From NCBI RefSeq assembly GCF_050920415.1, contig NZ_CP169309.1: a stretch of 64,000 nt of DNA; one strand, given 5' to 3'. This DNA is from Escherichia coli. Its GTDB lineage: Bacteria > Pseudomonadota > Gammaproteobacteria > Enterobacterales > Enterobacteriaceae. The stretch's first letter is position 1. Every line of letters begins with the position of its first letter. The translations under genes and the position numbers were made by a program. The notes below the pieces were generated by a model. That model was not told the DNA's origin. It ran no database searches and saw only the letters and a list, made by a program, of their open reading frames with translations. Shown in pieces: positions 40,239-41,904 of this stretch.

Positions 40239-40724
40239 ATGCAAGTTTTTATCATGCGTCACGGCGACGCAGCCCTCGATGCCGCCAGTGATTCGGTTCG
40301 TCCTCTGACCACTAATGGTTGTGACGAATCTCGCCTGATGGCGAACTGGCTGAAAGGTCAAAAAGTGGAAATCGAACGTGTTCTGGTGAGCCCGTTCCTG
40401 CGAGCCGAGCAAACACTGGAAGAAGTGGCGGATTGTATGGACCTGCCTTCCAGTGTAGAAGTTCTGCCTGAGCTAACGCCCTGTGGCGATGTTGGTCTGG
40501 TCAGTGCGTATCTCCAGGCACTGACCAACGAAGGTGTCGAGTCGGTACTGGTTATCTCCCACTTACCATTAGTCGGGTATCTGGTTGCCGAGTTATGTCC
40601 GGGCGAAACGCCGCCTATGTTTACCACTTCAGCGATTGCCAGCGTTACACTTGATGAAAGTGGAAACGGTCAATTCAACTGGCAGATGAGCCCGTGTAAT
40701 CTGAAGATGGCAAAAGCAATTTAA
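40239..40724 (+). CDS. sixA: Phosphohistidine phosphatase SixA
   Basis: 161 aa, RHG motif (IMRHGDA). Confidence 0.9.
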   Translation: MQVFIMRHGDAALDAASDSVRPLTTNGCDESRLMANWLKGQKVEIERVLVSPFLRAEQTLEEVADCMDLPSSVEVLPELTPCGDVGLVSAYLQALTNEGVESVLVISHLPLVGYLVAELCPGETPPMFTTSAIASVTLDESGNGQFNWQMSPCNLKMAKAI

Positions 40725-41271
40725 AAGCTCATATGCCCGGTTGCGTACGCGTATACCGGGCAAATTTTTTCTGTCCTAATTGTGATCATATTTTACATAT
40801 CACGAATTTTATTATCTTTCTTGTTATTGAAACTGGTAATAACACAGTGGAATAATGGTTTTGTATCTTGAATATATATTAATTAATTTAATTGAGATTT
40901 AATCTTATCAATAAATAATTGCAAAATCATTATAAATTATCTCAGTGGTTTTTATATTCAATGCATTCACATTGATTATGATGTCTTTTCTTTTTTTTGA
41001 TAATGCGCATGTTTTTTTATTGAAAAGCGAGTGAGATATTCTGGTTGTGTATTGATTAATTAAATCTACATAAAGTCTTTAAGTATTGCTACATTGATTA
41101 TTTTTAAGGATAAGACCAACATAACGACACACCAGAGAATATCTGTTTACATTCTATGATTATTTGGGACATATGATGTTCAATGGTTAACTAAAAGCGT
41201 CAGACATAATATATACAATAATATTATGTCAGTTGCTTGTATTATACATTTTAATGATTTAAGGACAAATA

Positions 41272-41832
41272 ATGAGTAAGTTTGCCAAAACAGCCATTGC
41301 TGCCGCAATGGTGATGGGCGCAGTTGTCTCCGCGTCAGCATTTGCTGCAGGCAACAACGGTACTGCACGTTTCTACGGCACCATTGAAGACTCCCCGTGC
41401 TCTATCGTTCCAGACGATCACAAACTGGAAGTGGATTTAGGTAACATCGGTGCCGAAGTACTGAAAAACAACGGGACTACCACGCCGAAAGATTTTCAGA
41501 TTCGTTTGCAGGACTGCGTATTTGAAACCCAAACGAACATGGAAACGACGTTCACCGGTAACGTTTCTACGGGAAACGAGAATTACTACACCATTTTTAA
41601 TACCGATACAGGTGCTGCGTTTAACAATGTAAGCCTGGCGATTGGTGATAAGCAAGGTACTTCCTATAAAAGCGGTGCTGGCATTAAACAGGCGATCGTA
41701 AATGACTCAGCAACCAATAAAGGCAAACCTAAACAGACTCTGAACTTCAAAGCCTGGTTAGTCGGTGCGACGGGTACGCCTGACCTGGGTGGTTTTGAAG
41801 CGAATACCACTTTCCAGATTACCTATCTCTAA
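41272..41832 (+). CDS. yfcV: Fimbrial major subunit (Yfc chaperone-usher fimbriae)
   Basis: 186 aa with signal peptide and fimbrial C-terminal beta strand; AT-rich upstream region. Confidence 0.8.
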   Translation: MSKFAKTAIAAAMVMGAVVSASAFAAGNNGTARFYGTIEDSPCSIVPDDHKLEVDLGNIGAEVLKNNGTTTPKDFQIRLQDCVFETQTNMETTFTGNVSTGNENYYTIFNTDTGAAFNNVSLAIGDKQGTSYKSGAGIKQAIVNDSATNKGKPKQTLNFKAWLVGATGTPDLGGFEANTTFQITYL

Positions 41833-41904
41833 GGTAATTCACCCCCATAGCATCTCGCTATGGGGGATTTTGGCGAGTTTTTGGACTTATTATAATAATC
41901 ACGG

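What the first reader, a model, noticed from the sequence alone, without database searches (positions are those of the whole stretch)
41203..41230. Perfect 10-bp inverted repeat 40 bp upstream of the fimbrial major-subunit gene
GACATAATAT-(8 bp)-ATATTATGTC lies in the AT-rich yfcV leader. A perfect 10/10 palindrome in a promoter region suggests a dimeric regulator binding site or an RNA structure in the leader.
Basis: seen in the sequence. Interest (0 to 1): 0.25.

Follow-up and report, generated by a model that had tools for sequence, protein, structure and literature searches.

The report
Hairpin tip in yfcV mRNA leader
The perfect 10-bp palindrome is real, but it is best read as the tip of a longer RNA stem-loop in the untranslated leader of the yfcV fimbrial gene, a stem-loop whose sequence differs between E. 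coli lineages while its base pairing is kept; this is a modest new example of a known kind of element, with no function shown.

Summary
GACATAATAT (41203-41212) and ATATTATGTC (41221-41230) are perfectly complementary, with an 8-nt spacer, and end 41 nt before the yfcV ATG (41272). About 5% of shuffles of the 27%-GC spacer give such a repeat.

The exact palindrome is single-copy and occurs in only 21 of 5426 complete E. coli genomes. Other yfc lineages carry different sequence at this position. Every lineage nevertheless has its own hairpin at the same place, between conserved flanks (TTCAATGG upstream, TTTAAGGACAAATAATG downstream).

Pairing is kept through compensatory changes:
- E. albertii turns two pairs of the palindrome itself from C-G to U-A and from A-U to G-C.
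- The basal stem is 86-89% paired, against 32-49% when partners are slid.
- Six of its 11 pairs show double changes.

A promoter-like conservation pattern (TTGATT-17-CAACAT, 41094-41122) would place the palindrome at about +75 to +102 of a ~143-nt 5' UTR.

The best reading is an RNA stem-loop in the leader, working like the papA/ompA stabilising hairpins. That function is inferred, not shown. A conserved operator for a dimeric regulator is disfavoured, because sequence and spacing are not conserved, there are no other copies, and no regulator gene is nearby. A neutral origin is not excluded. Interest is modest.

The parts
41203..41212 (+). Left arm of the perfect palindrome (GACATAATAT); 5' strand of the apical stem.
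   Evidence: In alignment A4, pair 41205-41228 is C-G in 12 rows and U-A in E. albertii. Pair 41204-41229 is A-U (5 rows), G.U (7) or G-C (1).
41213..41220 (+). Apical loop (ATACAATA). It is 8 nt here and 6 nt in the B2-type and E. albertii leaders.
41221..41230 (+). Right arm of the palindrome (ATATTATGTC); 3' strand of the apical stem.
   Evidence: A41223 is the base that makes the repeat 10/10; B2-type leaders have T there, giving 9/10.
41192..41241 (+). Whole stem-loop: basal stem (41192-41201 with 41232-41241), internal loop, and apical stem. The MFE structure extends weakly to 41182-41250.
   Evidence: The hairpin folds at -14.8 kcal/mol, z = -4.7. It is the only element kept in the centroid of the 176-nt leader fold. 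The basal stem is 89.4% paired in 32 leaders and 85.8% in 23 leaders, against 32-49% when slid.
41179..41186 (+). Conserved block TTCAATGG immediately 5' of the hairpin.
   Evidence: The block is nearly invariant in 69 unique leaders and in distant orthologues. It can pair with 41132-41141 or with 41292-41299. Its role is unknown.
41128..41141 (+). Conserved block CACACCAGAGAATA, probably at or near the 5' end of the transcript. CCA..GAATA is complementary to TGTTCAATGG (41177-41186).
   Evidence: The pairing was found by RNAalifold, but both sides are invariant, so there is no covariation.
41094..41122 (+). Candidate sigma-70 promoter: -35 TTGATT (41094-41099), 17-nt spacer, -10 CAACAT (41117-41122). 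The inferred start is near 41129.
   Evidence: The conservation pattern over 69 unique leaders keeps exactly TTG-N3-N17-cAnnAT. This is inference only. The consensus scan did not call it and no TSS data were found.
41242..41271 (+). AU-rich single-stranded linker and Shine-Dalgarno sequence (AAGGA, 41261-41265), left unpaired by the hairpin.
   Evidence: TTTAAGGACAAATAATG is conserved in loci found by protein search and is near-identical in albertii and Stf leaders.
41272..41832 (+). yfcV-type major fimbrial subunit gene.

Best explanation
The palindrome is the apical stem of a ~50-nt AU-rich stem-loop (41192-41241) in the 5' untranslated leader of the yfcV mRNA. The gene encodes the major subunit of the core E. 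coli Yfc chaperone-usher fimbria.

The element is defined by its pairing and position, not its sequence. Each yfc lineage has a different hairpin between the same conserved flanks, ending about 20-30 nt before an unpaired AU-rich linker and the Shine-Dalgarno sequence. The perfect 10/10 repeat seen here is the version found in one rare lineage. It differs from the B2 version mainly by one base (A41223) and a 2-nt longer loop.

The most likely action is at the RNA level. A structured 5' UTR element would protect the message from RNase E-type decay and/or set translation efficiency for the most abundantly needed subunit, as described for the papA and ompA leaders.

- **Shown:** the repeat, the predicted fold, its lineage distribution, and retention of pairing with compensatory changes.
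- **Inferred:** that the region is transcribed (promoter at 41094-41122), that the structure forms in vivo, and any effect on stability or translation.

I put about 0.6 on a hairpin under selection for pairing and about 0.3 on the specific stabiliser role.
For: 1. **Fold.** The palindrome is embedded in a longer hairpin: the repeat finder I1; MFE -22.2 kcal/mol, z = -2.6 for 41165-41275; -14.8 kcal/mol, z = -4.7 for 41192-41241. It is the only structure kept in the centroid of the 176-nt leader.
2. **Same place, different sequence.** Thirty-four unique leader cores from 120 metagenome loci and reference genomes nearly all fold into a single hairpin at the same place, although the apical sequences are unrelated.
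3. **Basal stem.** It is 89.4% paired against 32-49% for slid partners, with covariation 0.338 against 0.185 (0/500 shuffles). With distant orthologues added it is 85.8% paired, 6 of 11 pairs show double changes, and there are 17 pair types against 14.3 (28/500).
4. **The palindrome itself.** E. albertii has GGTATAATAT..ATATTATACT, so two adjacent pairs change on both sides (C-G to U-A, A-U to G-C). B2 leaders show the G.U intermediate.
5. **Fold energies.** In 18 of 20 leaders, including the Salmonella, Citrobacter and Enterobacter stfA leaders, the fold-energy z-score is negative, with a mean of about -1.6.
6. **Promoter-like pattern.** The conserved TTG-N17-cAnnAT pattern lies upstream of the hairpin. 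An independent genomic-SELEX prediction places a K-12 yfcV promoter even further upstream (PMC3946193).
7. **Precedent.** The papBA transcript is cut by RNase E upstream of a hairpin that then protects papA mRNA (as described in PMC5927463).
Against: - No transcription start or RNA 5' end is known for yfcV. The K-12 locus is H-NS-silenced.
- Thermodynamic support is uneven. Fold z-scores are about 0 for the L010 type (635 genomes), L043 and P. corydidari.
- RNAalifold on an ordinary alignment gives the hairpin only -0.34 kcal/mol, SCI 0.03, because the apical parts are not homologous.
- The conservative covariation measures are not, or only marginally, above shuffles: 4 against 3.4 pairs, and 6 against 4.6 (70/500).
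- The apparent preference for the sense strand (E+ below E- in 32 of 32 leaders) is explained by G+T-rich composition, so the strand is not established.
- Few independent lineages carry the signal.
Confidence: 0.5

Rival explanations
1. The hairpin is a neutral by-product of AT-rich DNA. Inverted repeats are common in this H-NS-bound 'promoter island'. Replication template switching, which copies one arm from the other, can create and refresh hairpins and mimic compensatory substitutions without any selection on an RNA or protein-binding function.
For: - About 5% of shuffles give a perfect 10-bp repeat.
- The 600-bp region holds 25 inverted-repeat pairs.
- The K-12 spacer is listed as a promoter island with H-NS binding (PMC3661553).
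- The two compensatory pairs in E. albertii are adjacent, as one template switch would produce. The mechanism is described in PMC8794818.
- The conservative covariation measures are weak, and several lineages have fold z-scores near 0.
Against: - A hairpin sits at the same position, between conserved flanks, in every lineage examined. This includes stfA leaders at 38-44% protein identity and at a different locus.
- G.U intermediates and single-sided wobble changes are frequent. Template switching would give perfect complements.
- Pairing is 86-90% against 28-49% for slid partners.
Confidence: 0.2
2. The palindrome is a DNA operator for a dimeric transcription factor. The factor could act as a roadblock repressor downstream of the start site, or as a lineage-specific regulator.
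For: The repeat is a perfect 10/10 dyad with a short spacer near the start of a tightly silenced operon. It is 100% identical in all 21 genomes of this lineage, although their spacers differ by up to 7%.
Against: - The half-site sequence is not conserved. The K-12 type (3503 genomes), L010 type (635) and others have unrelated sequence there.
- The spacer is 8 nt here and 6 nt in the B2 and albertii relatives, which would rotate the half-sites.
- Changes between lineages are complementary rather than conservative.
- There is no other copy in 5426 genomes, and half-site matches in the window are at the chance level.
- No regulator gene is in or next to the operon.
Confidence: 0.1
3. The hairpin is a leader attenuator. 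In this reading an AU-rich stem-loop followed by a U-rich tract terminates or pauses part of the transcription entering yfcV, damping read-through from the many spurious promoters of the AT-rich spacer.
For: - Every lineage has U-rich sequence 3' of the stem; for example, K-12 has ..GUUUAUA UUUUAAUUAUUUAU.
- The spacer is a promoter island.
- yfcV rises when Rho is inhibited by bicyclomycin, which shows that termination contributes to silencing (PMC10980228). This points to Rho rather than to an intrinsic terminator.
Against: - The terminator scan finds nothing on the + strand here.
- The apical stem has only 2 G-C pairs.
- In this window the tail after the base is UUAUACAUUUU, not a clean U-run.
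- An efficient terminator 30 nt before the SD would abolish expression unless antiterminated, and no such signal was seen.
Confidence: 0.1
4. The palindrome acts as a DNA structural element. In this reading the AT-rich palindrome extrudes as a cruciform or nucleates H-NS filaments, making the promoter sensitive to supercoiling.
For: The core is AT-only and rich in TpA steps. The K-12 region is H-NS-bound.
Against: In the variable basal pairs, 42 cells are G.T pairs and only 4 are A.C. G.T pairs are tolerated in RNA but weaken a cruciform on both strands. The interrupted stems with 3-nt internal loops are also poor cruciforms. Nothing in the data speaks specifically for this idea.
Confidence: 0.05

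Closest known systems
papA 5' stem-loop of the papBA transcript (P fimbriae, uropathogenic E. coli)
   Same: Both are hairpins in the untranslated region just upstream of the major-subunit gene of a chaperone-usher fimbria, followed by an accessible ribosome-binding site. In pap, RNase E cuts upstream of the hairpin and the hairpin then protects papA mRNA (PMC5927463 citing Bricker & Belasco 1999). The papB-papA spacer folds into comparable hairpins.
   Different: There is no sequence similarity (the yfc leader hits one place per genome). yfc has no upstream papB-like cistron, because sixA ends with its own terminator-like hairpin. No processing site, 5' end or half-life effect is known for yfcV.
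ompA 5' UTR stabilising hairpins and 5'-terminal base pairing (Belasco laboratory; references listed in PMC3997798)
   Same: Both have a structured 5' UTR upstream of an AU-rich single-stranded segment and the SD of a very abundant envelope protein. The possible pairing of the transcript's first bases (41132-41141) with 41177-41186 would give a base-paired 5' end.
   Different: The yfcV 5' end is only inferred. The flagged hairpin would be internal (+64 to +113), not 5'-terminal. Nothing has been measured.
Palindromic operators of dimeric regulators
   Same: It is a perfect dyad of 10 bp near a promoter.
   Different: Sequence and spacing are not conserved, changes are complementary, it is single-copy, and there is no adjacent regulator.
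Intrinsic terminators and leader attenuators
   Same: It is a stem-loop followed by U-rich sequence in a leader.
   Different: The stem is AU-rich and interrupted, the U-tract is weak, and the scan does not call it.

Membership tests
Stabilising 5' UTR stem-loop (papA/ompA type) | Lies within the transcribed 5' untranslated region of the mRNA it controls. | tested here: inconclusive
   A conserved promoter-like pattern at 41094-41122 and a SELEX-predicted K-12 promoter further upstream both put it in the leader. No TSS data were found.
Stabilising 5' UTR stem-loop (papA/ompA type) | Forms a stable stem-loop, more stable than composition predicts. | tested here: met
   The hairpin folds at -14.8 kcal/mol, z = -4.7. 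Across the family 18 of 20 leaders have z below 0, but three lineages are near 0.
Stabilising 5' UTR stem-loop (papA/ompA type) | Pairing is maintained in evolution (covariation). | tested here: met
   See: 86-90% of cells are paired against 28-49% when slid, and double changes occur at 6 of 11 basal pairs and 2 apical pairs. The conservative measures are only marginal (28/500 and 70/500).
Stabilising 5' UTR stem-loop (papA/ompA type) | Sits at or within a few nucleotides of the mature 5' end (primary or RNase E-generated). | not testable with these tools
   Needs 5' RACE or dRNA-seq. The inferred primary start (about 41129) is 63 nt upstream of the hairpin base.
Stabilising 5' UTR stem-loop (papA/ompA type) | Removing or disrupting it shortens mRNA half-life. 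| not testable with these tools
   Experimental.
Operator of a dimeric transcription factor | Half-site sequence is conserved among orthologous promoters. | tested here: not met
   The exact sequence occurs in 21 of 5426 genomes. Sequence at the same position is unrelated in the K-12, L010, E69 and whittamii types.
Operator of a dimeric transcription factor | Fixed spacing between half-sites. | tested here: not met
   The spacer is 8 nt here and 6 nt in the B2 and E. albertii leaders, which share the half-sites.
Operator of a dimeric transcription factor | Further copies in the genome (a regulon) or a cognate regulator gene nearby. | tested here: not met
   There is one place per genome. Half-site matches in the window are 5 against 2.9 expected. 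The neighbours are sixA and fimbrial structural genes only.
Rho-independent terminator / attenuator | G+C-rich stem followed immediately by a U-run. | tested here: not met
   No + strand terminator is called in 40600-41400. The apical stem has 2 G-C pairs, and the tails are AGUUGCUU and UUAUACAUUUU.
Any curated RNA family (Rfam 15) | Match at or near a family's gathering score. | tested here: not met
   The best hit is sau-19 at 23 bits against a gathering score of 80, E = 0.15.

The most novel reading that the evidence does not exclude
The whole ~143-nt yfcV leader may be a conserved, multi-part riboregulator rather than a simple hairpin. The invariant block UUCAAUGG (41179-41186) can pair either with the transcript's first bases (CCAnnGAAUA, 41132-41141) or with codons 7-10 of yfcV (AGCCAUUG, 41292-41299). 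The lineage-variable hairpin that carries the palindrome sits between these alternatives. Such a switch could gate translation or decay of the major subunit of a core, normally silent E. coli fimbria (and of Salmonella Stf) in response to a factor yet to be found.
Probability: 0.1. Interest if true: 0.6.

Novelty: new member of a known kind. Interest (0 to 1): 0.3.

Why it matters
Yfc is one of the few chaperone-usher fimbriae present in almost all E. coli (PMC3559732). yfcV is widely used as a uropathogen marker, yet how its expression is controlled beyond H-NS silencing is unknown.

A leader hairpin kept by compensatory change in Escherichia, Pseudocitrobacter and, by position, the Salmonella/Citrobacter stfA leaders would point to post-transcriptional control of the major subunit, as in pap. 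It gives a concrete, cheap target for mutagenesis.

It is also a caution for motif hunters. The 'perfect palindrome' is a lineage-specific state of a structure, not a conserved DNA site.

Tried and rejected
- **Rfam scan** of 40600-41500 at E up to 10 gave only spurious sub-threshold hits.
- **TSS or 3'-end data for yfcV.** Nothing was found in the supplements of the Term-seq paper or the Cappable-seq paper (files may be truncated). Bricker & Belasco 1999 is not held.
- **Strand test.** Sense-strand RNA is more stable than antisense in 32 of 32 leaders. I rejected this as evidence because shuffles of the same G+T-rich composition show the same difference.
- **Sliding RNAalifold/SCI** over 330 nt. 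The hairpin gets only -0.34 kcal/mol because apical stems of different lineages are not alignable, so the method is uninformative here rather than negative.
- **Regulon idea.** I searched for other copies of the palindrome in 5426 genomes and for half-sites in the window. There were none beyond chance.
- **Promoter inside or next to the palindrome.** The consensus scan found only an antisense-strand match (TTGTCC-16-TATAAT, 41268-41241) at the chance level of 5 found against 4.4 expected.
- **Small leader ORF.** From reading the sequences, the ATGs around TTCAATGG open ORFs of different frames and lengths in different lineages, so no conserved peptide is present.
- **Stf leaders** could not be aligned to Yfc leaders, so they support the hairpin only by position and fold energy.
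- **Two folds** (L003, L002) used badly chosen coordinates and are disregarded.

Full report
**1. The observation**

The window holds GACATAATAT at 41203-41212 and its exact reverse complement ATATTATGTC at 41221-41230, separated by ATACAATA. The repeat ends 41 nt before the ATG (41272) of a 186-aa ORF. That ORF is a Pfam Fimbrial protein, 82% identical to K-12 YfcV.

The gene order is fadI-fadJ-sixA, a 547-bp spacer, yfcV, usher, chaperone, three minor subunits and an adhesin. It matches an E. coli chromosome at 100%.

The spacer is 27% G+C. In 5000 dinucleotide-preserving shuffles of it, 4.8% contained a perfect 10-bp inverted repeat with a 0-20 nt loop. The repeat is therefore real and correctly located, and mildly unusual by itself.

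**2. Distribution**

I did this on 5426 complete genomes.

| Leader type | Genomes |
|---|---|
| Window type (spacer at 90% identity or more) | 21 |
| B2/ST131 type (spacer about 76% identical) | ~1220 |
| K-12 type (including ~426 O157-like at 80-90%) | 3503 |
| L010 type | 635 |
| E69 type | 1 |

- The 36 nt around the palindrome are 100% identical in all 21 window-type genomes and occur nowhere else.
- The B2/ST131 type carries GACATAACAT-ATATTA-ATTTTATGTC, which is 9/10 complementary with a 6-nt spacer.
- The K-12, L010 and E69 types have unrelated sequence at the same place.

**3. What is conserved**

I collected 140-nt leaders from three sources. These were a protein-guided genome scan, a DNA-pattern metagenome scan (120 loci, 42 unique leaders), and protein homologues with their contigs.

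All Yfc-type leaders share the same architecture:
- the block CACACCAnAGAATA;
- a variable stretch;
- TTCRATGG;
- a hairpin;
- an AU-rich linker;
- TTTAAGGAYRAATAATG.

Part of the downstream flank was imposed by my search pattern, but it is also present in the loci found by protein.

Nearly every one of the 34 unique cores folds into one long hairpin at the same place. The base of the hairpin (TAWAARNNNN / NNNNYTTWTA) is homologous throughout. The apical stem comes in at least two unrelated forms:
- GACATAA/TTATGTC in the window, B2 and albertii types;
- ATTGA/TCAAT in the K-12, whittamii, E69 and L010 types.

In the window the palindrome is the apical stem. The complete hairpin 41192-41241 folds at -14.8 kcal/mol (z = -4.7). 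It is the only structure that survives in the centroid of the 176-nt leader fold.

**4. Is pairing kept?**

*Basal stem, 32 distinct leaders (A2).* 89.4% of cells are paired, against 32-49% when the 3' partners are slid by 1-3 columns. Four pairs change on both sides, for example G-C in 14 rows and A-U in 13 at one pair. The covariation score is 0.338 against 0.185 in shuffles (0/500).

*Basal stem with distant orthologues added (A5, 23 rows).* 85.8% of cells are paired, against 34-46% slid. Six of 11 pairs show double changes (shuffles 4.6; 70/500). There are 17 further pair types against 14.3 (28/500). Covariation is reached by 0/500 shuffles.

*The palindrome itself.* E. albertii (YfcV 71% identical) has GGTATAATAT-ATAATA-ATATTATACT.
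- Pair 41205-41228 goes from C-G to U-A.
- Pair 41204-41229 goes from A-U to G-C, and B2 leaders show the G.U intermediate.
- Pair 41203-41230 goes from G-C to G.U.

*Another E. coli variant (L144).* It changes the K-12 basal TTG/CAA to TCA/TGG.

*Fold energies.* Z-scores are negative in 18 of 20 leaders, with a mean of about -1.6. This set includes five stfA leaders from Salmonella, Citrobacter and Enterobacter. Those cannot be aligned to yfc but also carry a hairpin ending 25-35 nt before the SD.

**5. Limits of that evidence**

- The measures least prone to phylogenetic artefact (number of pairs with double changes, number of pair types) are at best marginal.
- Three lineages, including the common L010 type, fold no better than shuffles.
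- RNAalifold on a plain alignment sees only a weak 5-bp consensus.
- The number of independent lineages is small.
- My first strand test was not valid. The sense strand is more stable in 32 of 32 leaders, but shuffled sequences of the same G+T-rich composition behave the same way.
- The excess of G.U over A.C cells in the variable basal pairs (42 against 4) favours the sense strand only weakly.

**6. Where is the promoter?**

The consensus scan gives nothing convincing near the palindrome. Across 69 unique leaders the invariant positions spell TTG-N3-N17-cAnnAT, followed by CAC.ACCAnAGAATA. These are the positions that matter most in a sigma-70 promoter.

In the window this is TTGATT (41094-41099) and CAACAT (41117-41122). 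It predicts a start near 41129 and a ~143-nt leader in which the palindrome is +75 to +102. This is inference.

Independent genomic SELEX placed a K-12 yfcV promoter (TTGAAA-17-TATAGT) about 376 nt upstream of the ATG, with H-NS binding (PMC3946193). The spacer is also listed as a 'promoter island' (PMC3661553). Either way the palindrome is downstream of the start, in the leader. No TSS data were found.

**7. Mechanism**

I commit to an RNA stem-loop in the 5' UTR. The SD and a conserved AU-rich linker stay single-stranded, so the hairpin does not mask the ribosome-binding site.

The nearest precedent is the related P-fimbrial operon. There RNase E cuts the papBA transcript upstream of a hairpin that then protects the long-lived papA mRNA (PMC5927463). 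The ompA leader is the general paradigm (references in PMC3997798). The papB-papA spacer fetched for comparison has comparable hairpins but no sequence similarity.

A stabilising or translation-setting role for the most abundant subunit is therefore the most economical reading, but nothing here measures it.

Rivals:
- neutral AT-rich palindromes refreshed by template switching (PMC8794818);
- a lineage-specific operator;
- a leader attenuator;
- a DNA structural role.

**8. Comparison and novelty**

No Rfam family matches, and I found no paper describing a yfcV or stfA leader structure. It is a new member of a known kind, a 5' UTR stem-loop upstream of a fimbrial major-subunit gene, rather than a new kind of element.

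**9. Verdict**

- Interest is modest (0.3).
- The most novel reading not excluded is that the whole leader, with the alternative pairings of UUCAAUGG, is a riboregulatory switch (probability about 0.1).

Noticed in passing
window 41181-41188 with 41292-41299, or 41177-41186 with 41132-41141: The invariant leader block (T)TCAATGG has two alternative partners. One is AGCCATTG in yfcV codons 7-10: an 8-bp helix in the MFE, kept in the K-12, B2 and E69 types, weak in L043, and broken in the L010 type. The other is CCAnnGAATA near the inferred 5' end, found by RNAalifold, with both sides invariant. This may explain why the block is conserved. Note 4 in the notebook gives the CDS coordinates one base too high.
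   Followed up: partly
window 41094-41141: The conservation pattern over 69 unique leaders keeps TTG-N3-N17-cAnnAT and then CAC.ACCAnAGAATA. This is a likely proximal yfcV promoter and transcript start that the consensus scan misses. Further conserved blocks lie upstream, TTAAnnAAATCTACA and TTAGTAAAnTTAAATTG at about 41058-41098, and may be regulator sites.
   Followed up: partly
window 41842-41866: A perfect 10-bp G+C-rich inverted repeat, CCCCCATAGC-ATCTC-GCTATGGGGG, lies 10 nt after the yfcV stop and before the usher gene, followed by ATTTTGG. It looks like the attenuating or 3'-stabilising hairpin usual between major-subunit and usher genes, but the scan does not call it a terminator because the T-tail is short.
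   Followed up: partly
window 40731-40765: A terminator-like hairpin (ATATGCCCGGT...ACCGGGCAAAT followed by a T-run) lies directly after the sixA stop. yfcV is therefore unlikely to be co-transcribed with sixA.
   Followed up: no
L028 and L056 (metagenome loci): Two leaders have unrelated sequence joined inside the hairpin (L028, at the apical loop) or just after it (L056). The cause could be an insertion, a rearrangement or an assembly chimera.
   Followed up: no
L006 (Pseudocitrobacter vendiensis); L138, L140, L141: P. vendiensis encodes a YfcV 97% identical to the window protein but has a quite different leader hairpin, which suggests recombination between leader and gene. In P. corydidari, L140 and Salmonella stf, the operon sits next to sspB rather than sixA.
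   Followed up: no
L001 15152-15997 (the same operon in the 100%-identical genome, roughly 6 kb downstream of the finding in the window): The StfH/YfcO-family adhesin gene at the end of the operon is annotated as a pseudogene with an internal stop in strain MFDS1022581. In ST131 the usher is truncated by IS1, and in K-12 yfcU is a pseudogene.
   Followed up: no
window 41268-41241 (minus strand): An antisense promoter-like site, TTGTCC-16-TATAAT (10 of 12), points back into the hairpin. The number of such sites in the region is at the chance level, 5 against 4.4.
   Followed up: no
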